Of a stretch of 64,000 nt of DNA, positions 22,355 to 30,910 are shown piece by piece. The stretch's first letter is position 1. The number at the start of each line of letters is the position of its first letter. The DNA is taken from contig CAWBGT010000017.1 of NCBI GenBank assembly GCA_963788375.1, positions 247,452-311,451 on the forward strand, given 5' to 3'. The notes below the pieces were generated by a model. The model was not told the DNA's origin, did not search any database, and saw only the letters and a program-made list of their open reading frames with translations. The DNA comes from an uncultured Chloroflexia bacterium. GTDB lineage: Bacteria > Chloroflexota > Limnocylindria > Limnocylindrales > CSP1-4. The position numbers and the translations under genes were made by a program.

Positions 22355-22430
22355 TGGAGCGGGAGACGGGGTTCGAACCCGCGACATTCAGCTTGGGAAG
22401 CTGACACTCTGCCAACTGAGTTACTCCCGC
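22355..22430 (-). tRNA. tRNA-Gly(CCC): tRNA-Gly, anticodon CCC, CCA-encoded
   Basis: The reverse complement reads GCGGGAG-TA-ACTC-AGTTGGCA-GAGT-G-TCAGC-TTCCCAA-GCTGA-ATGTC-GCGGG-TTCGAAC-CCCGT-CTCCCGC-T-CCA. It is a 76-nt cloverleaf with a 7-nt anticodon loop. Confidence 0.93.
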
Positions 22431-22443
22431 TCGGGAGAACCCG

Positions 22444-22472
22444 AGTCTAGCGCAGCGATCGTCCGTCCTCAA
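22444..22472 (-). promoter_or_regulatory. Putative tRNA-Gly promoter (-35 TTGAGG, 17-nt spacer, -10 TAGACT)
   Basis: The minus strand reads TTGAGG-acggacgatcgctgcgc-TAGACT. The -10 ends 13 nt upstream of the tRNA 5' end. Confidence 0.45.
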
Positions 22473-22836
22473 CCACGCCGCCGCCGGGGCTGTCGATCGC
22501 CTTGACGGCCGAATTCCGTGGGCCATACGATTCGCCTGTCGCGCGAGCGGCACGCATCGAGAGCGCCGGAGAGATACAGCTCGACGAAGGCGCGGCAACC
22601 ACCGGTCCTCCCGGGACCGGAACGGTGCCAACGCTGTAACCCGATGCGGCAGGGTCCCGACCACGGACCGGCAACGGCATGCGCCTGCGTGACACGCGCC
22701 CGCGCGCGCCGCCCAACGTGGACGGCGTTCCCATCGAGAGTGCCGGAGGGGCCTGGCCCGCAGATGGCACCGCAACCGGACCCGGCGGCACGCCGGGAGC
22801 ACGGTGCGCCTCCCAGGCCGGATGGGAGAACGTGCC

Positions 22837-23628
22837 ATGACCTCCACGCACACGCGAGCCGCGGCGCGCGCGGCCACGCCGGGCGCCGCAACGCCGGCTG
22901 CCGGTACGCCGGTCAACGTGGGCCAGGTGCCCTTCGACGGCTTCCCGTACCTCGTCACCCGGATCGGCCGGACGCCGCTCCGCCATCTTGCGGTGGTGCC
23001 CGCCGATTGGTCGCGGGACCAGCTGGTGGACCTCCTTTGCCGCCAGGTGGATGCCAACCAGCTCGACACCTGCCTCTGCCTCGGACCCGCCGATGCGGTC
23101 TACGTCCGGCCGCCTGGCCGGCCCACTCCGACCCCGCACATCCCGACGGGCATCCCGGTCCTCGACCGCATCGTGATCGCGGACCCGCTGCCCGAGTCAC
23201 CGGACCTGGCCCGGCGCCATGCGGCGCTCGTCGCCTACGTAACGCGCAACGGGGCGACCGGCCACCTCGTGGGCGACGGGCTCGAGGGCGGCACCCCCGC
23301 CACGCTCGAGGACGTCGCCCGGCTGTCCGGCACCGGACCCGACGGCCTTCCGCCGGGCCTCCGGCGGTGCGGGTCCTGTGGCCAGCCGCGCGGCGAGCAT
23401 CTCTCGATGCGCGGCCTGGACTACGACGAGCGGAACCCGCGCGTGGTCCCCGTCCACTGCCAGTGCGACAACCACAACCGTTGCGCCGGCTGCGGCCGAC
23501 CGCTCGCGGACCAGCGCCTGAGCGCCTGGTACTGGGACGAGGAGCGGGCCGGCGCCTGGTATGTCGCCGCCTACTGCGGCCTCTCCCACCGGTGCGACGC
23601 CGTCAAGCCGGCGGTGAGTGACCCCTGA
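22837..23628 (+). CDS. Hypothetical protein with a C-terminal Cys/His-rich (probable zinc) module
   Basis: MTSTHTRAAARAATPG ... RRCGSCGQPRGEH ... VHCQCDNHNRCAGCGRPL ... YCGLSHRC. Third codon positions are consistently G/C-rich. Confidence 0.65.
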   Translation: MTSTHTRAAARAATPGAATPAAGTPVNVGQVPFDGFPYLVTRIGRTPLRHLAVVPADWSRDQLVDLLCRQVDANQLDTCLCLGPADAVYVRPPGRPTPTPHIPTGIPVLDRIVIADPLPESPDLARRHAALVAYVTRNGATGHLVGDGLEGGTPATLEDVARLSGTGPDGLPPGLRRCGSCGQPRGEHLSMRGLDYDERNPRVVPVHCQCDNHNRCAGCGRPLADQRLSAWYWDEERAGAWYVAAYCGLSHRCDAVKPAVSDP

Positions 23629-23695
23629 GAGGATGCAGCCGAGACGCGCCCGGGCACGAGGCTGCGCGTCTGCGTCACTCACCTGGAGGCGCATC

Positions 23696-23724
23696 TTGAC
23701 TGGGCACCCGATTGGTGACAGATT
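23696..23724 (+). promoter_or_regulatory. Putative promoter (-35 TTGACT, 17-nt spacer, -10 CAGATT), leaderless geometry for the DUF433-like gene
   Basis: TTGACT at 23696-23701 and CAGATT at 23719-23724. The ATG at 23732 lies 7 nt after the -10. Confidence 0.3.
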
Positions 23725-23731
23725 GGCACCA

Positions 23732-24256
23732 ATGACTGCGAGACCACCCAAGAACCGGCACCGCCTGTTCGCCGATGTTCCCGAGGCGACCGATGCGCGG
23801 GTGCGCCAGACGGCGCGCACGTTCTATCGGGGTGTTGTCAGCGATGCCGTCACCACGGCGCTCGAGACGTTCGAGTGGGTAGTCGACGCTCGAAGACGGG
23901 GCAAACGCGTGATCGCGACGGACGCCGACATGCTGCCGGCCACCTTCGAGGAGCCGGTCATCGCCGGTCTCGAGCGTCTGGGCCACGAGTGGACGTGGCT
24001 CGTGCGCCGGGATCACCCGTGGCGGCGCCAGCTCTGGATCAAGGGCCGGAACATCGCCGCCGGCGACCTCGCCCGGACGGCCGCGATCGAATGCTGGACG
24101 GCCGATGAGACCGCAAGGGAGTTCGACCTGCCCGTCGACGCCGTTCTCGAGGCACAGCGGTACGCGGAGATCGCCCGCGACCTGATCGCCGCCGAGGAGG
24201 CGGAGGATCGGATCGTCGCCCAGCGCTTCGAGCCCGACCTTGCGCCTCTACCTTGA
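23732..24256 (+). CDS. DUF433-like domain protein (putative antitoxin-type partner)
   Basis: The C-terminal RRQLWIKGRNIAAGDLARTAAIECWTADETAREFDLPVDAVLEAQRYAE resembles the DUF433 HTH-like domain. ATG 23732 was chosen inside the 212-aa track ORF. Confidence 0.65.
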   Translation: MTARPPKNRHRLFADVPEATDARVRQTARTFYRGVVSDAVTTALETFEWVVDARRRGKRVIATDADMLPATFEEPVIAGLERLGHEWTWLVRRDHPWRRQLWIKGRNIAAGDLARTAAIECWTADETAREFDLPVDAVLEAQRYAEIARDLIAAEEAEDRIVAQRFEPDLAPLP

Positions 24257-24521
24257 CGAGGACACAGCAAGCCTCCAGTTGATAAGGAGGCTTCGCGCAG
24301 CCGGTCACGTCGTGATCGAGCCACTGCGGGGCATGTCCGACTTGCGCTGCTGGCGGCACGCCAGGGCGGAGCGCGCCGTCGTCCTCACGACAAACGCGCG
24401 GGACTTCGTGGCCCTCGCGGGGACGGGGGCGCATCACGGCCTGCTGCTCGTATATCGCGAGAACGACCCGACCCCGAGCTGGAGCGGCTCGCCGCAGCCG
24501 AGTGAGGGAGCCCAGGCATAG
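24240..24521 (+). CDS. DUF5615-like (Mut7-C/PIN-like) protein
   Basis: (M)RLYLDEDTASLQLIRRLRAAGHVVIEP ... AVVLTTNARDFVAL ... HHGLLLVYRENDP. TTG start, 17-nt overlap with the DUF433-like gene. The C-terminal tail looks atypical. Confidence 0.6.
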   Translation: MRLYLDEDTASLQLIRRLRAAGHVVIEPLRGMSDLRCWRHARAERAVVLTTNARDFVALAGTGAHHGLLLVYRENDPTPSWSGSPQPSEGAQA

Positions 24522-24611
24522 GTCGACGCCCCGTCGGGCGCGCGGTGGGCCTCGATGGCTTGTGGCGCGCTGACGGGGCGTCGTGGTTGCACAGGCCGGA
24601 GCCCGTGCGAG

Positions 24612-24707
24612 CTAGATGGGACGTGCCGACGCGATGCCTGCGATGGCGATCGCCGCGACGGCACAGACGCGCACGAGCGCGTCAAGGCGCCGGTGGCCGC
24701 GAAGCAC
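24612..24707 (-). CDS. Candidate 31-codon hydrophobic peptide ORF (speculative)
   Basis: GGAGG lies 5 nt upstream of the GTG. The peptide is MLRGHRRLDALVRVCAVAAIAIAGIASARPI. It sits in an otherwise ORF-poor 0.75-kb gap. Confidence 0.2.
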   Translation of the reverse strand: MLRGHRRLDALVRVCAVAAIAIAGIASARPI

Positions 24708-25278
24708 ACCAACCTCCTGACTTCGGCAGCCCGGCTGACTCGCCTGCGCGAGTCCCGTGGCTTTGCGTCCCCGGGTCACCCCGGGTTTGCCTTTATCGGC
24801 CAGCCTCCTGGCTGGGACGGCGCTTGCCGCCTGCCGGAACGGTAGCGGCTCCCGGTGCGCCTGTGCACCCTCCAAGCCGTCCCAGTCGAGGCCGTACCTT
24901 GGTCGGGGAGCCGGCGCTCATCCGCATCCGCACGCCCGCTCGACGATCGCCATCACGAGCCCCAATCGGCCCATGCGGCCCGTCCGGATGGGTCATGTGC
25001 ACCGCTCAGCCGCACGCCTAGCATCTGGCAGACGTCCGGCCCGGCAGGGATCAACGCGCAGACGAAGGTACTGGTCGGGACTTGAAACTTTGCCGGCATC
25101 GGGCGACACAGAGAAGCGGGCCATCGGTGGCCTCCAGGCGCGTCCCCGCTGGAGACCACCGCCGTCGCCACCGCGTACTGCGAGGCGTGATGATGTCGTG
25201 CGCCAATGAGGAGCGGAGACCGCTTCCGCGCGCGCCCATGCCCGCGACGCTCCCGCGCCCAGCGACGACTCACAGCTG

Positions 25279-25668
25279 ATGATCGGCCTCCGGGGGATGC
25301 TCGGCCGGATGCAGTCCGTCGATGACGGGCACGCCACGTCGCCCGGCGACGACGCCGGCCTGAACCCGAACCCGGCCTCCGCTCCGGACGCACGCCTCGC
25401 CAGGCTCGTCGCGCGCGACGTCCTCAAGCGCCGCGCGATGGTCTCGGCCCTGGTCGTCGCGGATCCGGTCCGCTGCGTGGAGTGTGGGATCTGCTCCTAC
25501 AACTGCCCGCTGGGCATCGACGTCCGCTCGCATGTCCGGCGCAGCCTCCCGGTCTCGGACAACCGCTGCCTCACGTGCGGCGAGTGCGTCGCTCGCTGTC
25601 CGCGCGGCACGCTCCGCTTCGAGGAGTCGACGGTGTTCGCCGCCGGTCCGGCCGCGGCGGGCGAATGA
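25279..25668 (+). CDS. 4Fe-4S dicluster (ferredoxin-type) domain protein
   Basis: Two CxxCxxCxxxCP motifs: CVECGICSYNCP and CLTCGECVARCP. The N-terminal ~65 aa are low complexity, so the start is uncertain. Confidence 0.8.
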   Translation: MIGLRGMLGRMQSVDDGHATSPGDDAGLNPNPASAPDARLARLVARDVLKRRAMVSALVVADPVRCVECGICSYNCPLGIDVRSHVRRSLPVSDNRCLTCGECVARCPRGTLRFEESTVFAAGPAAAGE

Positions 25669-25669
25669 C

Positions 25670-26986
25670 ATGGCCACCCGCTATGTCGTCGTGGGCAACG
25701 GCGCCGCCGGTGCGACGGCCGCCCTGGCGATCCGGCGCCATGACGCCGCCGGCGAGATCCAGGTCGTTGGGGCCGAGAAGGTCCCGTTCTACTCGCGTCC
25801 CGGCCTGGCCTACCTGCTGACCGGCCAGATCCCCGAGGGACGGCTGTTCTCGCGCCCGGACCGGGAGCTCAGGGAATCGAACATCGAGCGGACCGTCGCA
25901 CGGGTGCAGGCGTTGGACCCGCGGGCGCACCGCCTCGAGCTCGACGACGGCAGGGCCATCCGCTACGACCGCGTGCTGCTGGGCGTCGGCGCCAAGGCGG
26001 TCCGCCCCGAGATCGAGGGCATCGACCTCCGCGGCGTGGTGACGCTCGACAGTCTCGAGGATGCTCGCCTGATCCTCAAGCTCGCGAAGAAGGCAAAGCG
26101 GGCGTGCGTGGTCGGCGGCGGGATCACCGCGATCGAGCTTGCGGAAGGCCTCGCCGCGAACGGGGTGAAGACGACCTACCTGATGCGCGGCGATCGCTAC
26201 TGGGCGAGCGTGCTGGACCCGCGCGAGTCCGCGCTGGTCGAGGAACGCCTGGCCCACGACGGGATCGTGATCCGGCGCAACACCGAGCTGGGCCGGGTCA
26301 TCGGGCACAAGGACCACGTCACCGCGATCGAATCGAAGGACGGCGTGCGGATCGACTGCGACCTGCTGGCGGTGGCCGTCGGCGTGCAGCCGCGGCTGGA
26401 GCTTGCCCGCCACGCGGGCCTGGAGACGGGCCGCGGGATCTTCACCGATGACACGTTCGCGACCGGCACGCCGGACATCTTCGTGGCCGGTGATGCCGCC
26501 GAGGTGCTGGACCCCGCCACGGGCCGTCGCGGCATCGACAGCCTGTGGTCGGTCGCCATCGCGCAGGGGCGGATCGCCGGGGCGAACATGGCCGGTGCGT
26601 CGGAACGATACGGCCGCGCGGCCCCGTTCAACGTGACCAGGATCGGCGGGGTGACGGCGACGCTGATCGGCGCCGTGGGAGCCGGAGGACGGGACGGAGA
26701 CCTCGTCGCTCTCGCCCGCGGCGACAGCGGGGCGTGGCGCGAGCAGCTCGACGGCTTCGCGGTGGCAGACGACAGCGGCGCGGACCACCTGCGGCTCATC
26801 CTGGGCGCGGACCGGATCCTGGGTGCCGTGGTGATGGGCGAGCAGTCGTTGTCCCGTCCCCTGCTGCACCTGGTCCGGCACAAGGTGGACATCCGGGACG
26901 TGCGCGACCGCCTGCTGCTGGGGTCGGCGGAGCTCCGGGCCGCGATCGCGCAGCTGATGGAACGGACCGTTGCCAATGCGGTATAG
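25670..26986 (+). CDS. NAD(P)/FAD-dependent pyridine-nucleotide-disulfide-type oxidoreductase
   Basis: MATRYVVVGNGAAGATAALAIR (FAD site), ACVVGGGITAIELAEGLA (NAD(P) site) and IFVAGDAAEV. The ATG lies 1 nt after the ferredoxin stop. Confidence 0.88.
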   Translation: MATRYVVVGNGAAGATAALAIRRHDAAGEIQVVGAEKVPFYSRPGLAYLLTGQIPEGRLFSRPDRELRESNIERTVARVQALDPRAHRLELDDGRAIRYDRVLLGVGAKAVRPEIEGIDLRGVVTLDSLEDARLILKLAKKAKRACVVGGGITAIELAEGLAANGVKTTYLMRGDRYWASVLDPRESALVEERLAHDGIVIRRNTELGRVIGHKDHVTAIESKDGVRIDCDLLAVAVGVQPRLELARHAGLETGRGIFTDDTFATGTPDIFVAGDAAEVLDPATGRRGIDSLWSVAIAQGRIAGANMAGASERYGRAAPFNVTRIGGVTATLIGAVGAGGRDGDLVALARGDSGAWREQLDGFAVADDSGADHLRLILGADRILGAVVMGEQSLSRPLLHLVRHKVDIRDVRDRLLLGSAELRAAIAQLMERTVANAV

Positions 26987-27620
26987 CGAGCTGCTCGTCG
27001 CGGCGGCACTGATCGCCGGGATCACGGCCGCCTACGTGGCACTACTGGGGACGACCGCCGTCCCGGCGGCGGGCAGCCTGGTCGGCCACATGATGGGCGT
27101 CGTCGGGTTCACGCTGATGCTGCTGACCGAGACCCTGTACTCGCTGCGCAAGCGGGCGATGCGCCGGCCGCGGGGCAGCATGCGCACGTGGCTCCAGGCC
27201 CACATCGTGATGGGCATCGTGGGACCGTACCTGGTCCTCCTGCACGCGGCGTGGACGTTCAGGGGCCTGGCGGGGGCCCTGTCGCTGATGACCGCGATGG
27301 TGGTCGCGTCCGGCTTCATCGGCCGGTACATCTACACGGCCGTGCCCAGGACGGCCGATGGCGCCATCGTCGAGGCGCACGAGCTGGAGCTGCAGCTGGT
27401 AGCGCTGCGCGCCGCCGGGATCCCGGGAGCCAACCGGGACGAGCACCGGGCGATCGAGCGCCGCATCGGCCGCCTGGAGCGCCAGATGGGCGCCCTGCGC
27501 TGGGAGCGGCGGGTGCTCGCGACGTGGCATGCGGTCCACATCCCGCTGGGCATGGCGATGTTCGTGGTGGCGTTCGCGCACATCGCCGCGACCGTCTACT
27601 ACGCCACGCTGCTGCGCTGA
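26976..27620 (+). CDS. Five-TM His-rich membrane protein, possible b-type haem carrier (inferred)
   Basis: Conserved-looking His residues sit in TM segments (LVGHMMGVVGF; WLQAHIVMGIVGPYLVLLHAAW; WHAVHIPLGMAMFVVAFAHIA). A charged coiled-coil insert precedes the last TM. It overlaps the upstream gene by 11 nt. Confidence 0.75.
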   Translation: MRYSELLVAAALIAGITAAYVALLGTTAVPAAGSLVGHMMGVVGFTLMLLTETLYSLRKRAMRRPRGSMRTWLQAHIVMGIVGPYLVLLHAAWTFRGLAGALSLMTAMVVASGFIGRYIYTAVPRTADGAIVEAHELELQLVALRAAGIPGANRDEHRAIERRIGRLERQMGALRWERRVLATWHAVHIPLGMAMFVVAFAHIAATVYYATLLR

Positions 27621-27632
27621 GGGGAGGGAGCG

Positions 27633-29660
27633 ATGCGCCGTCCGCTGGGCTGCATGACCTTCTCGGGGCTGGTCGCCGCCATCGTGGCGGTGCTGGCCAT
27701 CGCGGGGCTGATCGCCGTGAACGGCAACTCCATGTTCAGCCCTGGCGAGCTGAGCTCCGTGTCGCAGGCGGACTCGACGAAGGTGGTCGCGCTGGGCGGG
27801 ATCTCCTCGCACGCCCAGCTGGAGGGCCAGTGTGACGCCTGCCACGCTGCGATCTGGTCCGGCCAGGTCATGGGCGACCGCTGCCTGGTGTGCCACGCGG
27901 AGGTCGGGCAGCAGGCGGCGGACGGCACCGGCCTCCACGGGCGCCTCGACGCGAGCGCCTCCACCTGCCTGCGGTGCCACACGGAGCACCGCGGGGAGAC
28001 GGCATCGTCCACGCGCGCCGACCCGGAGGTCTTCCCGCACGAGGAGACGGGGTTCGCGCTCACCGCCCACCAGCAGCCGGCGGTTGCCACCGGGGTGGGC
28101 TGCCGGGAGTGCCACCCGGGGTCGCCCGGGGACTACGCCTCGCCGACGTGCATCGGCTGCCACCAGCGCCTGGACAAGGCCGCGATGACCGAGCACGTCG
28201 ACACGTACGGTGCGACGTGCCTCAACTGTCACGACGGCAAGGACACGTACGGCAGGTCGTTCCAGCACACGGCCTATCCACTGACCGGCAAGCACCAGGA
28301 CGCGAGCTGCGCGTCATGTCACCGCGGCTCCACCACGCTCGCGGCCCTGCGCTCGACGTCCACCGTGTGCGCCACGTGCCACCAGAAGGACGACGTCCAC
28401 GAGGGCCGGCTCGGCCAGGACTGCGGCTCGTGCCACACCCCGGCGGGCTGGGACAATGCCACGCTGGACCACGCTACCCAGACGCGGTTCGCCCTCACCG
28501 GTGAGCATGTCGGCGTGGCCTGCGCGTCGTGCCACGTCAACCGGAAGTGGACCGGGATCGGCACCACCTGCGCCACCTGCCACGCGCAGGACGATCCGCA
28601 CGCCGGCCAGTTCAAGGGCGACTGCGCGTCGTGCCACGCGTCCACGGGCTGGAAGGACGTGACGTTCGACCATGCCACGACGGCATTCCCGCTCGCGAAG
28701 GCGCACGCCGATGTGGCCTGCGCGTCCTGCCACAAGGGCGGCAAGTTCGCCGGCACGTCCACGACCTGCGTCTCGTGCCACGCCGCCGATGACACGCACA
28801 AGGGCGCCCTGGGCCGCGACTGCCAGGCCTGCCACAAGGCCACCACCTGGTCCGCTGCCTCCTTTGACCATGCCACGACGGCCTTCAAGCTCACCGGGGC
28901 CCATGCAGGCGTCACCTGCCAGCGGTGTCACACCAGCGCCCCGCCATCCTCGACGCCGACGAGCTGCGCCTCCTGCCATGACAAGCCGGCGGCGCACGAC
29001 CGCCACTTCGCCGGCAACTGCGCCTCGTGCCATACCACGAGGGCCTGGAGGCCGGCCGCCTTCGACCACTCGAAGACCAGGTACCGGCTGACCGGCGCCC
29101 ACATGGGCGCGGCATGCCAGAAGTGCCACGGGTCATCCGCGACGAGCTACGCCAGCGCTTCCCCCGCCTGCGCGTCCTGCCACACCAAGCCCGCGTCGCA
29201 CACGGCCGCCTTCGGGTCCGCCTGCGGCACGTGCCACTCCACGAAACGGTGGCAGCCGGCCACGTTCGACCACAGCCGGACGGGGTTCAAGCTCACCGGG
29301 GCACACCTGGACACCTCCTGCAAGAAGTGTCACAAGGGGTCGACGTTCAAGGGTCTGTCGACGGCCTGTGTGAGCTGCCACGCCAAGCCCGCGTCGCACC
29401 CGAGCTCCTACGGAACGGTGTGCACGAAATGCCACACGACGAAGGCCTGGCGACCCATCTCCTACAGCGGGCCGCACACGTTCCCGATGACCCACCGCAC
29501 TTCGAACGGGACGTGCTCGATCTGCCACCCGTCCTCGCTGGCGTCGTACACGTGCAGCAAGTGCCACTCGAACACCAAGATGAACGAGCACCACAAGGAG
29601 GTCGCCGGCTACTCGCTGACCACCTGCGCGAAGTGCCACCCGACGGGGAAGGGCGACTAG
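27633..29660 (+). CDS. Membrane-anchored multihaem c-type cytochrome with 27 CXXCH motifs
   Basis: 675 aa with one N-terminal hydrophobic helix (FSGLVAAIVAVLAIAGLIAV). 27 CXXCH motifs were counted. Six tandem ~66-aa trihaem modules have the pattern FDH..T.F.LTGAH...C..CH. GGGGAGGGAG precedes the ATG. Confidence 0.95.
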   Translation: MRRPLGCMTFSGLVAAIVAVLAIAGLIAVNGNSMFSPGELSSVSQADSTKVVALGGISSHAQLEGQCDACHAAIWSGQVMGDRCLVCHAEVGQQAADGTGLHGRLDASASTCLRCHTEHRGETASSTRADPEVFPHEETGFALTAHQQPAVATGVGCRECHPGSPGDYASPTCIGCHQRLDKAAMTEHVDTYGATCLNCHDGKDTYGRSFQHTAYPLTGKHQDASCASCHRGSTTLAALRSTSTVCATCHQKDDVHEGRLGQDCGSCHTPAGWDNATLDHATQTRFALTGEHVGVACASCHVNRKWTGIGTTCATCHAQDDPHAGQFKGDCASCHASTGWKDVTFDHATTAFPLAKAHADVACASCHKGGKFAGTSTTCVSCHAADDTHKGALGRDCQACHKATTWSAASFDHATTAFKLTGAHAGVTCQRCHTSAPPSSTPTSCASCHDKPAAHDRHFAGNCASCHTTRAWRPAAFDHSKTRYRLTGAHMGAACQKCHGSSATSYASASPACASCHTKPASHTAAFGSACGTCHSTKRWQPATFDHSRTGFKLTGAHLDTSCKKCHKGSTFKGLSTACVSCHAKPASHPSSYGTVCTKCHTTKAWRPISYSGPHTFPMTHRTSNGTCSICHPSSLASYTCSKCHSNTKMNEHHKEVAGYSLTTCAKCHPTGKGD

Positions 29661-29712: not shown

Positions 29713-30402
29713 CTACCGCCCCGACGCGGTCCTCCGGACGACGGGCGCCTGCGGGTCGTGGGTGGCCACGTACGTCGGCACCTGGGCGCGGCGGTCCAGC
29801 CCCAGCTTGGCGAGGATCGAGCTGACGTAGTTCTTGACGGTCTTGTCCGAGAGGAAGACCGCCTCGGCGATCTCGCGGTTGGTCATGCCGGCGGCGATCA
29901 GCGGCAGGATCTCGCGCTCGCGGGCCGTCAGCGTGCTGGCCTCGTCCGGGTAGGTCCCGCCCATGATCCGCCGGACGCGCTCGAGGACCATGCCGGTGAC
30001 CACGGCGTCGAACATCGACTCGCCGCGCGCCACCGCCTCCAGGGTGCGCACGAGCTGGGCCGACCGCGTCTGCTTGAGCACGTAGCCGCGAGCGCCGGCC
30101 ACGATGGCCGCGAACACGTCGAGCTCGTCGGGCGAGCTGGTCAGGAACACCACCCGCAGGTCTGGGAACTCGTCGAGCAGCAGCCGGCAGGCCTCGATTC
30201 CCGATGCGTCGGGCAGCTGGATGTCCAGCAGCGCGACGTCCGGCTGGAACCGTCGGGCCTGGGCGACGGCCCCCTCGCAGGTTCCCGCCTCGGCCACGAC
30301 CTCGAACTGCCCGCGGCGATCGAGGTACGCGATCAGCCCGCGACGGACCACCTCGTGATCGTCGACGACGAGAATCCGCAGGGGCGCAGCGGGGGTGGTC
30401 AT
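29713..30402 (-). CDS. NarL/FixJ-type response regulator (REC + LuxR HTH)
   Basis: MTTPAAPLRILVVDDHEVVRRGL ... PDVALLDIQLPDASG ... LTAREREILPLIAAGMTNREIAEAVFLSDKTVKNYVSSILAKL. No histidine kinase gene is adjacent. Confidence 0.92.
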   Translation of the reverse strand: MTTPAAPLRILVVDDHEVVRRGLIAYLDRRGQFEVVAEAGTCEGAVAQARRFQPDVALLDIQLPDASGIEACRLLLDEFPDLRVVFLTSSPDELDVFAAIVAGARGYVLKQTRSAQLVRTLEAVARGESMFDAVVTGMVLERVRRIMGGTYPDEASTLTAREREILPLIAAGMTNREIAEAVFLSDKTVKNYVSSILAKLGLDRRAQVPTYVATHDPQAPVVRRTASGR

Positions 30403-30454
30403 CCGACCCCGAGCATGACGGCTCCGGCGGCGGACTGCAACGCCAACCCGGCGG

Positions 30455-30910
30455 CTAGACCCGTGATCGGAGGTCCACGCTGAAGTCGACGTAGGCGCGG
30501 AGCATCGCCAGCGCCTCGCCCCAGCCCTCGAGCGCCTCGGCCCAAGCGTCCATGCCCCCCGGCCGGTCCAGCGGGAAGGGACCGTCATCGAGCTGCATCA
30601 CGGTCCCGTAGCCGGCCGGCTGGATGGTGACCCGGGCGGTGGTGATCAGGCTCTCGTCCGGGAGCCACGGCCAGCGGAACAAGAACGTCGTGGCGCTCCG
30701 GGCTTCGAGCACCTCCCACCACACCCGGTGGTCCTCCCAGGCGAGGATCGTTCGGGCACCCACGGTCAGACCGCCCTCGACGCGGTCCGGGAACCAGCGG
30801 GCGAGCTCCTCGGAGTCGGACCACGCGCGATAGACCCGCTCCGGCGGCGCGTTGAAGCGCCGGATCATCTGGACGGTCGGGTTGAGCTCCGTGCCGGCGG
30901 GCAGCGTCAT
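30455..30910 (-). CDS. SRPBCC-superfamily (AHSA1/START-like) protein
   Basis: RRFNAPPERVYRAWSDSEELARWF with a typical length of 151 aa. Confidence 0.8.
   Translation of the reverse strand: MTLPAGTELNPTVQMIRRFNAPPERVYRAWSDSEELARWFPDRVEGGLTVGARTILAWEDHRVWWEVLEARSATTFLFRWPWLPDESLITTARVTIQPAGYGTVMQLDDGPFPLDRPGGMDAWAEALEGWGEALAMLRAYVDFSVDLRSRV

What the first reader, a model, noticed from the sequence alone, without database searches (positions are those of the whole stretch)
25279..29660. Tightly coupled ferredoxin / flavoprotein / His-rich membrane protein / 27-haem cytochrome c operon
Seen: four same-strand genes with a 1-nt gap (25668/25670), an 11-nt overlap (26976/26986), and a 12-nt gap carrying GGGGAGGGAG before ATG 27633. 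The last product (675 aa) has one N-terminal hydrophobic helix and 27 CXXCH motifs. Its partners are a 2x[4Fe-4S]-type protein, a pyridine-nucleotide-disulfide-type FAD/NAD(P) oxidoreductase, and a 5-TM protein with His pairs in its TM helices. Established: CXXCH marks covalent haem c attachment, and proteins with more than 20 haems are associated with long-range or extracellular electron transfer. Inference: this may be a conduit from cytoplasmic NAD(P)H/ferredoxin through a b-type membrane carrier to an outward-facing haem wire. The partner set does not match the Mtr, Pcc, Omc, Nrf, Hao or Otr modules I know. The genomic background (F420-type PPOX, LAL regulators, VapBC arrays) is one where such proteins are uncommon. 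No cytochrome c maturation genes are in the window.
Basis: partly seen in the sequence, partly recalled or inferred. Interest (0 to 1): 0.8.

Follow-up and report, generated by a model that had tools for sequence, protein, structure and literature searches.

The report
Conserved NAD(P)H-to-multihaem electron-export operon
Four tightly coupled genes (a ferredoxin, an NAD(P)H-type flavoprotein, an unnamed five-helix membrane protein with four invariant histidines, and a 27-haem cytochrome) form a cassette conserved in hundreds of uncultured Chloroflexota genomes, and it most likely carries electrons from the cytoplasm to the cell exterior without using quinones; no experiment has tested this.

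Summary
The host is not an actinobacterium. The flanks match Chloroflexota MAGs at 90% nucleotide identity, a phylum where large multihaem cytochromes are common.

The block is a conserved cassette. A pattern scan found 447 species-level genomes encoding a relative of the membrane protein. In 53 of 60 loci with enough flank, all four parts sit together, while the flanks differ.

The membrane protein belongs to a large unnamed family (3,230 clusters at 50% identity, no Pfam or NCBIfam hit, no solved-structure match). It has two invariant H-x13-H pairs on TM3 and TM5, the signature of a transmembrane dihaem b.

A second clade, in Fibrobacteria, Acidobacteriota, Myxococcota and Calditrichota, pairs this protein with multihaem cytochromes and a different, fused 4Fe-4S/flavoprotein. 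That independently supports the functional link.

The cytochrome consists of nine c7-type trihaem units, like Geobacter GSU1996 and the 27-haem GSU2210.

The best reading is a NOX-like, quinone-independent NAD(P)H → FAD → FeS → haem b → haem c export wire. Direction, acceptor and cytochrome maturation remain untested. I rate it a new variant of a known kind; nine literature searches found no description of it.

The parts
24951..25278 (+). Conserved non-coding leader or promoter region upstream of the cassette
   Evidence: It is 90% identical to L001 and about 79% to L002, with invariant blocks, although it shows no codon periodicity. No Rfam family matches. A consensus fold of three sequences is inconclusive, with covariation term +2.35.
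25279..25668 (+). Cytoplasmic 2x[4Fe-4S] ferredoxin (129 aa) with a clade-specific 53-aa N-terminal extension
   Evidence: Pfam Fer4_9, Fer4_10 and Fer4_7. Both CxxCxxCxxxCP motifs are at least 90% conserved in 67 orthologues. There is no TM segment. GC3 of the extension is 0.94.
25670..26986 (+). Cytoplasmic FAD/NAD(P)H oxidoreductase of the ferredoxin/rubredoxin-reductase type (438 aa)
   Evidence: Pyr_redox_2 at 180 bits. The closest solved structure is AorC, 8c0z_E, E=3.9e-44. The closest NCBIfam is PadH at 190 bits, below its cut-off. Both Rossmann motifs and YSRPGLAY are conserved, and there is no redox-active Cys. There is no TM segment.
26976..27620 (+). Five-TM membrane protein (214 aa) of an unnamed family; candidate transmembrane dihaem cytochrome b
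   Evidence: No Pfam or NCBIfam hit. H76/H90 on TM3 and H188/H202 on TM5 are invariant in a 62-sequence alignment at 34% mean column identity, and all four align in 63 of 87 representatives. K+R counts are 7 and 11 in loops 2 and 4, against 0 and 1 in loops 1 and 3. AlphaFold2 pLDDT is 92.6. Sub-threshold Pfam hits go to Ni_hydr_CYTB, DUF4405 and Ferric_reduct.
27621..27630 (+). Shine-Dalgarno-like GGGGAGGGAG in the 12-nt gap before the cytochrome gene
   Evidence: Read directly from the sequence.
27633..29660 (+). Membrane-anchored 27-haem c-type cytochrome (675 aa) built from nine c7-type trihaem units
   Evidence: 27 CXXCH motifs. Cytochrome_C7 in 7 stretches, plus Cytochrom_c3_2. The trihaem period is 66-68 aa with 6 His per unit, which implies all bis-His coordination. 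Of 22 orthologues at 44-87% identity, 21 keep 24, 27 or 30 motifs and one has 26.
27639..27740 (+). N-terminal signal-anchor helix of the cytochrome (residues 3-36), preceded by the conserved cytoplasmic motif RRPLGC
   Evidence: Kyte-Doolittle maximum of 2.68 and a single hydrophobic segment. The N-terminus M(R)RRPLGC(M/L)TF...GN(G/S)(I/M)FSPG is conserved across orthologues.

Best explanation
The four genes encode one membrane-spanning electron-transfer complex that exports reducing equivalents from the cytoplasm without passing through the quinone pool.

Proposed path:
1. NAD(P)H reduces the FAD of the 438-aa flavoprotein.
2. Electrons pass to the two [4Fe-4S] clusters of the dedicated ferredoxin.
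3. The ferredoxin docks on the arginine-rich cytoplasmic loops and helical hairpin of the 5-TM protein.
4. Two b haems, held by His76/His188 on the inner side and His90/His202 on the outer side, carry electrons across the membrane.
5. The 27 bis-His c haems of the membrane-anchored cytochrome relay them through the cell envelope. The chain would be roughly 25-30 nm if extended like GSU1996. The acceptor is external: Fe(III)/Mn(IV) minerals, humic substances, a partner cell, or possibly O2.

An electron leaving a negative-inside cell dissipates membrane potential. The system is therefore more likely an NAD(P)+-regenerating electron sink or a reductive solubiliser than an energy-conserving respiration.

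What is shown: gene structure, cofactor motifs, topology by charge bias, conservation and synteny. What is inferred: haem b binding, complex formation, direction and acceptor.
For: 1. Translational coupling on one strand, with a 1-nt gap, an 11-nt overlap and a 12-nt gap carrying an SD-like motif.
2. Synteny. A scan found 447 species-level genomes with a relative of the membrane protein. In 53 of 60 loci with enough flank, ferredoxin, flavoprotein, membrane protein and a multihaem cytochrome are contiguous. The cytochrome is downstream in 43, upstream in 9 and on both sides in 1. Most exceptions are frameshifts or local rearrangements. Flanks are unrelated between genomes.
3. Membrane protein. 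Two invariant H-x13-H pairs lie on TM3 and TM5 across a family of 3,230 clusters at 50% identity. Charge bias puts both pairs' first His near the cytoplasm and the second near the outside. Recurrent sub-threshold Pfam hits go to three families annotated as haem-b or cytochrome-b-like membrane proteins, in 37, 23 and 18 of 62 members.
4. Flavoprotein. The closest solved structure is AorC, and the closest named NCBIfam family is the NADH-dependent phenylglyoxylate dehydrogenase subunit PadH. From prior knowledge, not checked here, both work with [4Fe-4S] partner subunits. It has no active-site Cys and carries the conserved YSRPGLAY and GGGItAxE...RgdRYW motifs.
5. Independent replacement. In Holophagales, Acidobacteriota, Fibrobacteria, Polyangiaceae and Calditrichota, the same membrane-protein family sits with a 20-haem and a second 19-43-haem cytochrome. 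It also sits with a non-orthologous, TM-anchored Fer4 + Pyr_redox_3 fusion. Two unrelated FeS-flavoproteins recruited to the same b + c core argue that a cytoplasmic pyridine-nucleotide/FeS input is the conserved function.
6. The cytochrome has an N-in signal anchor and nine c7-type units. The Fibrobacteria operon carries ResB and CcsA next to the membrane gene.
7. The concept has precedent. MsrQ-like and PepSY-like dihaem proteins with NAD-binding domains are predicted to move NAD(P)H electrons to extracytosolic carriers.
Against: - There is no experimental datum of any kind.
- The membrane protein does not reach any Pfam threshold. Foldseek against PDB gives nothing (best E=0.15, TM below 0.4), so 'dihaem b' rests on the His pattern and weak profile hits.
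- Known b + multihaem c pairs (Geobacter CbcL, CbcBA) are quinol oxidases, and a quinol site in this protein cannot be excluded.
- Some family members lack a detectable ferredoxin/flavoprotein within the fetched flanks (L070, L082).
- In the Fibrobacteria operon the FeS-flavoprotein lies 6 kb downstream rather than adjacent.
- No cytochrome c maturation gene lies in the window or in any fetched Chloroflexota locus.
- NADH versus NADPH specificity is not determined.
Confidence: 0.55

Rival explanations
1. Cbc-like quinol oxidase. The 5-TM protein oxidises menaquinol and passes electrons to the multihaem cytochrome, as Geobacter CbcL and CbcBA do. The ferredoxin/flavoprotein pair would be a second or regulatory input, or would serve another function.
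For: Dihaem b next to a multihaem c is the established architecture of quinol:cytochrome c oxidoreductases. The commonest weak Pfam hit is Ni_hydr_CYTB, the family annotated as prokaryotic cytochrome b561, in 37 of 62 members; from memory it also holds the HydC/FdnI-type b subunits. A few family members have no FeS-flavoprotein in the fetched flank (L070, L082).
Against: The FeS/flavoprotein partner is almost always present in Chloroflexota, in 53 of 60 loci strictly and about 58 of 60 loosely. A different FeS-flavoprotein replaces it in five other phyla. This is hard to explain if cytoplasmic input were dispensable. The 11-nt overlap links flavoprotein and membrane genes translationally. The large, Arg-rich, conserved cytoplasmic hairpin (residues 121-183) looks like a protein-docking surface.
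Confidence: 0.2
2. Same complex, different purpose. It could be an assimilatory ferric reductase or an envelope 'capacitor': NAD(P)H-driven reduction of extracellular Fe(III) for uptake, or electron storage as proposed for GSU1996, rather than dissimilatory electron disposal.
For: NOX/FRE and MsrQ-like or PepSY-like dihaem systems are linked to iron assimilation. GSU1996-type polymers are discussed as electron-storage capacitors. The pathway as drawn conserves no energy.
Against: No iron transporter (VIT1, FeoB and the like) or Fur-type context appears in the window or in the annotated related loci. Making 18-51 haems per polypeptide is costly for simple iron assimilation.
Confidence: 0.15
3. 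Inward electron uptake. The cytochrome collects electrons from extracellular donors such as Fe(II), reduced humics or a cathode, and the complex reduces ferredoxin or NAD(P)+.
For: Flavoproteins of this class are generally reversible (from prior knowledge, not checked here), and a Chloroflexi isolate shows both anodic and cathodic current.
Against: By established bioenergetics, inward electron movement works against a negative-inside membrane potential. It would also have to reach about -320 to -400 mV from donors that are usually far more positive. No coupling-ion subunit is present.
Confidence: 0.05
4. Chance adjacency. The four genes are unrelated neighbours, or the cytochrome gene is a decaying relic.
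For: None beyond the absence of expression data.
Against: Synteny holds across hundreds of genomes with different flanks. GC3 is 0.88-0.95. All 27 CXXCH motifs are retained in most orthologues down to 47% identity.
Confidence: 0.02

Closest known systems
NADPH oxidase / ferric-reductase-domain proteins and bacterial MsrQ-like or PepSY-like NAD(P)H-linked dihaem systems (Méheust et al. 2021, read)
   Same: The logic is the same: cytoplasmic NAD(P)H, then flavin, then two bis-His b haems stacked across the membrane, then an extracytoplasmic acceptor. Both have two His pairs about 14 residues apart on two TM helices.
   Different: This is not a PF01794 member (17 bits against a cut-off of 28). 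It has five TM helices rather than six. The flavoprotein is a separate Pyr_redox_2 enzyme, not a fused FNR-type domain. An extra 2x[4Fe-4S] ferredoxin is interposed. The acceptor is a 27-haem cytochrome rather than O2, Fe-chelate, MsrP or a flavinylated protein.
Geobacter inner-membrane bc-type complexes CbcL and CbcBA
   Same: A membrane dihaem b is paired with a multihaem c facing outward, dedicated to extracellular electron transfer. CbcBA is also proposed to be a low-yield, non-conserving route.
   Different: Those take electrons from menaquinol and have no cytoplasmic NAD(P)H or FeS subunits. Their b subunits are recognisable HydC/FdnI-type proteins, whereas this one is not. Those hosts are diderm.
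Geobacter c7-type polymer cytochromes GSU1996 and GSU0592 (12 haems) and GSU2210 (27 haems)
   Same: A single polypeptide is built from tandem c7-like trihaem domains, here nine domains giving 27 haems. Pfam Cytochrome_C7 and NCBIfam 'nanowire_3heme' signals are present.
   Different: Here every unit has six His, implying all bis-His coordination, whereas GSU1996 has one His-Met haem per domain. This protein is membrane-anchored by an N-terminal helix rather than soluble and periplasmic. It is encoded with dedicated b, FeS and FAD partners. It has no significant sequence match to any solved structure except a weak one to a 16-haem cytochrome.
Desulfovibrio Hmc and Tmc transmembrane redox complexes (named from prior knowledge; Tmc is mentioned)
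   Same: A multihaem c outside, a cytochrome b in the membrane and a cytoplasmic FeS protein are linked for transmembrane electron transfer.
   Different: Those use NarI-type b subunits and HdrD-like CCG FeS proteins, have no NAD(P)H flavoprotein, and are thought to carry electrons inward from periplasmic H2 oxidation.
AorABC tungsten aldehyde oxidoreductase (AorC, PDB 8c0z_E) and phenylglyoxylate dehydrogenase PadH
   Same: The flavoprotein is homologous (E=3.9e-44; 190 bits to NF045765). Like them, it is encoded next to a [4Fe-4S] partner with which it would exchange electrons with NAD(H).
   Different: It falls below the equivalog cut-off of 475 bits. There is no tungsten or 2-oxoacid catalytic subunit. 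The FeS partner is a small 2-cluster ferredoxin, and the sink is a membrane cytochrome chain.

Membership tests
c7-type polymer ('nanowire') cytochromes (GSU1996/GSU2210) | Tandem c7-like trihaem domains on one polypeptide | tested here: met
   Cytochrome_C7 at 129 bits in 7 stretches. There are nine CXXCH triads, six of them with a 66-68 aa period.
c7-type polymer ('nanowire') cytochromes (GSU1996/GSU2210) | One His-Met coordinated haem per domain (as stated for GSU1996) | tested here: not met
   Each regular unit has 3 proximal and 3 further conserved His and no conserved Met.
c7-type polymer ('nanowire') cytochromes (GSU1996/GSU2210) | Soluble periplasmic protein with detectable sequence similarity to the solved GSU1996 | tested here: not met
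   phmmer against PDB returns only 1z1n (a 16-haem cytochrome) at E=4.7e-4. There is a single strong N-terminal TM segment. Whether it is cleaved is unknown.
Ferric-reductase-domain / NOX / MsrQ family (PF01794) | Profile match at the curated threshold | tested here: not met
   17.1 bits against a cut-off of 28 for the window protein. 18 of 62 family members match at E no greater than 1.
Ferric-reductase-domain / NOX / MsrQ family (PF01794) | Two bis-His haem b sites formed by His pairs 13-14 residues apart on two TM helices | tested here: inconclusive
   The H76-x13-H90 and H188-x13-H202 pattern is invariant. Haem binding and 3D geometry could not be measured, because model coordinates are not returned.
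Ferric-reductase-domain / NOX / MsrQ family (PF01794) | FNR-type FAD/NAD(P)H domain fused or adjacent | tested here: not met
   The partner is a Pyr_redox_2 flavoprotein plus a separate ferredoxin.
Cbc-type quinol:cytochrome c oxidoreductases (CbcL, CbcBA) | HydC/FdnI-type dihaem cytochrome b (PF01292) at threshold | tested here: not met
   12.5 bits against a cut-off of 30.1. 37 of 62 members give sub-threshold hits, best E=4e-5.
Cbc-type quinol:cytochrome c oxidoreductases (CbcL, CbcBA) | Quinol as electron donor | not testable with these tools
   No quinone-site motif is defined for this family. It needs biochemistry.
Hmc/Tmc complexes | NarI-type b subunit and HdrD-like (CCG) cytoplasmic FeS subunit | tested here: not met
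   No such Pfam domains occur in any of the four products.
AorC/PadH-type NAD(H):FeS flavoprotein subunits | Homology to the family plus an adjacent [4Fe-4S] partner | tested here: met
   8c0z_E at E=3.9e-44. NF045765 at 189.6 bits, which is below the 475-bit equivalog cut-off, so this is a relative and not an equivalog. The ferredoxin gene lies 1 nt upstream.
CoA-disulfide reductase / NADH oxidase branch of Pyr_redox_2 | Redox-active cysteine in the N-terminal active-site motif | tested here: not met
   The position carries the conserved YSRPGLAY. No Cys is conserved at 90% or more in 69 orthologues.
Flavinylation-associated extracytosolic electron-transfer systems (ApbE / FMN-binding) | [quoted passage not shown] | tested here: not met
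   Neither is present in the cassette or in the ten flanking genes scanned.
Functional c-type cytochrome (any) | Cytochrome c maturation system (Ccm or ResB/CcsA) in the same genome | not testable with these tools
   It is absent from the window and from all 80 Chloroflexota loci. ResB and CcsA sit in the homologous Fibrobacteria operon. The rest of the host genome could not be fetched.

The most novel reading that the evidence does not exclude
An undescribed, quinone-independent electron-export machine may be one of the commonest extracellular-electron-transfer modules in uncultured soil, aquifer and lake bacteria. Its parts would be a pyridine-nucleotide flavoprotein, FeS clusters, a new family of 5-TM dihaem cytochrome b, and a c7-polymer multihaem wire of tunable length (10-51 haems). 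It has been assembled at least twice with different flavoproteins, once in monoderm-type Chloroflexota and once in Acidobacteriota, Fibrobacteria, Myxococcota and Calditrichota.
Probability: 0.45. Interest if true: 0.8.

Novelty: new variant of a known kind. Interest (0 to 1): 0.65.

Why it matters
Extracellular electron transfer is understood mainly from Geobacter and Shewanella, where electrons leave the quinone pool. How the abundant, mostly uncultured Chloroflexota of soils, aquifers, humic lakes and digesters might do it is unknown. That includes Anaerolineae and the lineages labelled Chloroflexia or Limnocylindrales.

This cassette gives a compact, four-gene, testable candidate. It suggests a direct NAD(P)H-to-outside route, which would act as a redox-balancing sink rather than a respiration. 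It also defines a large unnamed membrane-protein family (thousands of sequence clusters) with a clear cofactor prediction.

The cassette could serve as a genomic marker for electroactivity in monoderm-type bacteria. It could also be a minimal module for engineering electron export.

Tried and rejected
1. Actinobacterial origin. Rejected: the cassette and its flanking genes match Chloroflexota MAGs.
2. Exact-protein look-up of the window's cytochrome. It is not on record.
3. AlphaFold2 with a shallow 25-sequence alignment gave pLDDT 68 and was unusable. A 62-sequence diverse alignment gave 92.6.
4. Foldseek against PDB returned only BAR-domain-like long-helix noise. A profile search of PDB sequences hit only the variable coiled-coil linker, matching haemagglutinin HA2, which is spurious.
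5. Apparent 'Rosetta-stone' fusions among family members:
   - P0340 (membrane protein + c7 domain) is a frameshift read-through into the neighbouring cytochrome gene.
   - P0384 (Fer2 + membrane domain) is a doubtful high-GC gene call. Neither is used as evidence.
6. Cytochrome c maturation genes. A WWD-motif regex and tblastn with Fibrobacteria ResB and CcsA found none in the window or in the Chloroflexota loci. No tool could fetch the rest of the host genome.
7. The c-di-GMP-I-GGC riboswitch as a regulator of the cassette. Rejected: it is on the opposite strand, lies inside a lineage-specific insertion, and is absent upstream of the cassette in nine related loci.
8. A conserved RNA structure in the 330-nt leader. 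Inconclusive with three sequences.
9. A sigma-70 promoter and intrinsic terminator scan gave nothing above shuffled expectation.
10. Nine literature searches found no description of this gene set.
11. The search for related loci with the diverse alignment failed because it had no conserved stretch. The closer alignment worked.

Full report
**Observation.**
The four same-strand ORFs and their junctions are exactly as described.
- The ferredoxin gene runs 25279-25668 with stop TGA at 25666-25668. One base follows, then the flavoprotein ATG at 25670.
- The flavoprotein stop TAG lies at 26984-26986 and overlaps the membrane-protein ATG at 26976 by 11 nt.
- The membrane-protein stop TGA lies at 27618-27620, followed by GGGGAGGGAG and ATG at 27633.
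- The last product (675 aa) has exactly 27 CXXCH motifs and no variant motifs. It has one hydrophobic segment at residues 3-36.
- Third-position GC is 0.88-0.95 in all four frames and 0.94 in the ferredoxin's N-terminal extension, so these are real genes.
- Pfam and NCBIfam give a 2x[4Fe-4S] ferredoxin, a Pyr_redox_2 flavoprotein, and c7/c3-type cytochrome domains. They give nothing for the membrane protein.

**Whose genome.**
The window is 70-75% G+C. The membrane protein's closest relatives (89% and 79% identity) lie in MAGs labelled 'uncultured Chloroflexia bacterium' from Danish soils. One of these, L001, is 90% identical at the nucleotide level across the cassette and shares the downstream flanking genes at 70-86%. 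The host is therefore a Chloroflexota lineage, and the cassette is not a recent import into an actinobacterium. Other named relatives are Candidatus Limnocylindrales and Anaerolineales. Proteins with 20 or more haems have already been counted in this supergroup: 124 proteins, 88 of them in Anaerolineae.

**A conserved cassette.**
- Four close orthologues of the cytochrome on large contigs, three at 57-75% identity and one at 44%, all sit in the same ferredoxin / flavoprotein / 214-225-aa unknown / cytochrome block, with entirely different flanks.
- A pattern scan of one genome per species found 447 genomes encoding a relative of the membrane protein. The best 80 loci are all Chloroflexota MAGs.
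- Of 60 loci with enough flank, 53 have all four parts contiguous under strict criteria. The cytochrome is downstream in 43, upstream in 9 and on both sides in 1. Most of the rest are frameshifted or locally rearranged.
- The cytochrome partner varies from 10 to 51 haems with modes at 18, 21 and 27. The wire appears to be lengthened or shortened by whole trihaem units.
- The window's flanks are unrelated: beta-lactamase-fold and alpha/beta hydrolases, a DUF5615 protein and a LuxR-type response regulator.

**The membrane protein.**
- It belongs to a large family with no name. The word-indexed search found more than 3,000 homologues. The exhaustive search found 3,230 clusters at 50% identity at E no greater than 1e-3, and 1,591 at E no greater than 1e-10.
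- In a 62-sequence alignment with 34% mean column identity, the only invariant residues are H76, H90, H188, H202 and three glycines. All four His align in 63 of 87 representatives. His38 and His185 are conserved only among close relatives.
- The two pairs are each H-x13-H, on TM3 and TM5.
- Loops 2 and 4 carry 7 and 11 Lys+Arg, against 0 and 1 in loops 1 and 3. This gives an N-in/C-out topology with H76/H188 near the cytoplasm and H90/H202 near the outside. This is the classical arrangement for two b haems stacked across a membrane (established knowledge for cytochrome b, NOX and FdnI-type proteins).
- With the diverse alignment, AlphaFold2 gives a confident model (pLDDT 92.6, pTM 0.85). It shows five TM helices and a cytoplasmic helical hairpin continuous with TM5.
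- Foldseek finds no solved structure like it, and a profile search of PDB sequences is empty apart from spurious coiled-coil hits.
- Scanning each of the 62 members against Pfam gives recurrent sub-threshold hits to Ni_hydr_CYTB (37 members), DUF4405 (23) and Ferric_reduct (18). From memory, these belong to one dihaem-cytochrome clan. I read this as remote membership of that superfamily but of no described family.

**The soluble partners.**
- The flavoprotein has no TM segment.
- Its closest solved structure is AorC of the tungsten aldehyde oxidoreductase (8c0z_E, E=3.9e-44), followed by NADH oxidases, rubredoxin reductases and ferredoxin reductases. Its best NCBIfam match is PadH, below the equivalog cut-off.
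- In 69 orthologues both dinucleotide motifs and YSRPGLAY are conserved and no cysteine is. It is therefore a ferredoxin/rubredoxin-reductase-type enzyme, not a disulfide reductase.
- The ferredoxin's eight cluster cysteines are conserved in 67 orthologues. It is a generic polyferredoxin-like 2x[4Fe-4S] module.

**An independent second version.**
- A Holophagales homologue of the cytochrome lies in the order: membrane-protein homologue, 20-haem cytochrome, TM-anchored Fer4 + Pyr_redox_3 fusion, 43-haem cytochrome.
- A distant family member (27% identity) led to Fibrobacteria MAGs. There one operon reads: ResB, CcsA, membrane protein, 20-haem cytochrome, 31-haem cytochrome, an unknown 560-aa protein, and the same kind of Fer4 + Pyr_redox_3 fusion.
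- Polyangiaceae, Acidobacteriota and Calditrichota loci have the same set.
- The fusion is not detectably similar to the Chloroflexota flavoprotein by tblastn at E no greater than 1e-4.
- Two different FeS-flavoproteins are thus joined to the same b + c core in six phyla. This is the strongest computational argument that cytoplasmic pyridine-nucleotide/FeS input is part of the function and not a chance neighbour.

**The cytochrome.**
- The 27 motifs fall into nine triads. Six triads repeat with a 66-68 aa period and the pattern FDH...LTGAH...CxxCH...CxxCH...H...CxxCH. That gives six His per unit, so all haems should be bis-His.
- This is the c7-polymer architecture known from Geobacter GSU1996 and GSU0592 (12 haems) and GSU2210 (27 haems). 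It differs in haem ligation and in its membrane anchor.
- Orthologues conserve an N-terminal M(R)RRPLGC motif, the TM helix and a following FSPG motif. This is compatible with a fixed contact to the membrane subunit.

**Mechanism.**
Putting these together, the best-supported reading is a NOX-like split system: NAD(P)H, then FAD, then 2x[4Fe-4S], then two b haems, then 27 c haems, then an external acceptor.

Direction is inferred from thermodynamics. Export runs downhill in potential and with the membrane potential. Import would have to climb both. Such export dissipates proton-motive force, so I favour a role as an NAD(P)+-regenerating electron sink or a reductive solubiliser.

The main rival is a Cbc-like quinol oxidase. 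I cannot exclude it, because a quinol site cannot be tested in silico. Assimilatory iron reduction or electron storage are variants of the same machine.

**Prior knowledge and novelty.**
Nine full-text searches found no description of this gene set.

The concept of NAD(P)H-fed dihaem membrane proteins serving extracytosolic carriers has been proposed bioinformatically for MsrQ-like and PepSY-like systems. bc-type inner-membrane cytochromes and c7 polymers are known from Geobacter. I therefore class this as a new variant of a known kind: a new b family, a new partner set and a wide distribution.

**Limits.**
- There is no expression or biochemical evidence.
- Haem b binding and subunit contacts are inferred.
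- The host's cytochrome c maturation genes could not be looked for outside the window.

Noticed in passing
window 24721-24800 (minus strand): A full-length c-di-GMP-I-GGC variant riboswitch aptamer (RF03167, 70.5 bits, E=1.8e-16) lies in the non-coding gap upstream of the cassette and points away from it. No coding ORF follows it on the minus strand. Transcription would run antisense into the DUF5615 gene and the gene overlapping it. Its target is unexplained.
   Followed up: partly
window 22551-22650 and 22728-22828 (+), ORF 22804-23628 (+): Two tandem SAM (S-box) riboswitch aptamers (55.8 and 46.0 bits) precede a 274-aa ORF. The second overlaps the predicted start. The ORF has no Pfam or NCBIfam match and a Cys-rich C-terminus. 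It is an uncharacterised SAM-regulated gene.
   Followed up: partly
window ~22431-24950: In relatives L001 and L002 a tRNA gene lies about 500-570 nt upstream of the cassette. In the window about 2.5 kb is inserted between the same tRNA (22358-22430) and the conserved leader. The insertion carries the SAM-riboswitch gene, a 212-aa ORF, a DUF5615 gene and the c-di-GMP riboswitch. It is a small tRNA-adjacent islet.
   Followed up: partly
window 24951-25278: The ~330-nt non-coding leader of the cassette is conserved (90% to L001, ~79% to L002). It has invariant blocks such as CGAAGGTAC, TGAAAC, CGACACAG and a CTCC...GGAG hairpin. No Rfam family matches, and three sequences are too few to establish a structure.
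   Followed up: partly
L009 3526-3606 (minus strand): A c-di-GMP-II-GAG variant riboswitch (48.3 bits) lies about 2.8 kb upstream of the cassette in another Chloroflexota MAG, again on the opposite strand. This is a second cyclic-dinucleotide riboswitch variant near the cassette and may be coincidence.
   Followed up: no
L090 5854-17325; also L008, L091-L094: A second-clade operon occurs in Fibrobacteria, Acidobacteriota, Myxococcota and Calditrichota. It reads: ResB, CcsA, membrane-protein homologue, 20-haem and 19-43-haem cytochromes, an unknown 560-aa protein with no Pfam or NCBIfam hit (possibly an outer-membrane component), and a TM-anchored Fer4 + Pyr_redox_3 fusion.
   Followed up: partly
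window 27633-27760 and orthologues P0003-P0109: The cytochrome's cytoplasmic N-terminus carries a strongly conserved M(R)RRPLGC motif with an invariant Cys before the TM helix, and FSPG after it. The function is unknown. It resembles neither a lipobox nor a canonical Tat motif.
   Followed up: no
L024/L031 (KTt_bin-0728) and L068/L078 (356-284 bin.041): Some MAGs carry two copies of the cassette on different contigs, so paralogous wires of different length may coexist in one organism.
   Followed up: no
window 29713-30588 (minus strand): A LuxR/GerE-type response regulator is convergent with the cytochrome gene, 52 nt away. A homologous segment is also near the cassette in L001 (86% nt identity, rearranged), and a Response_reg + GerE gene lies about 5 kb downstream in L004. 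It is a possible but untested regulator.
   Followed up: no
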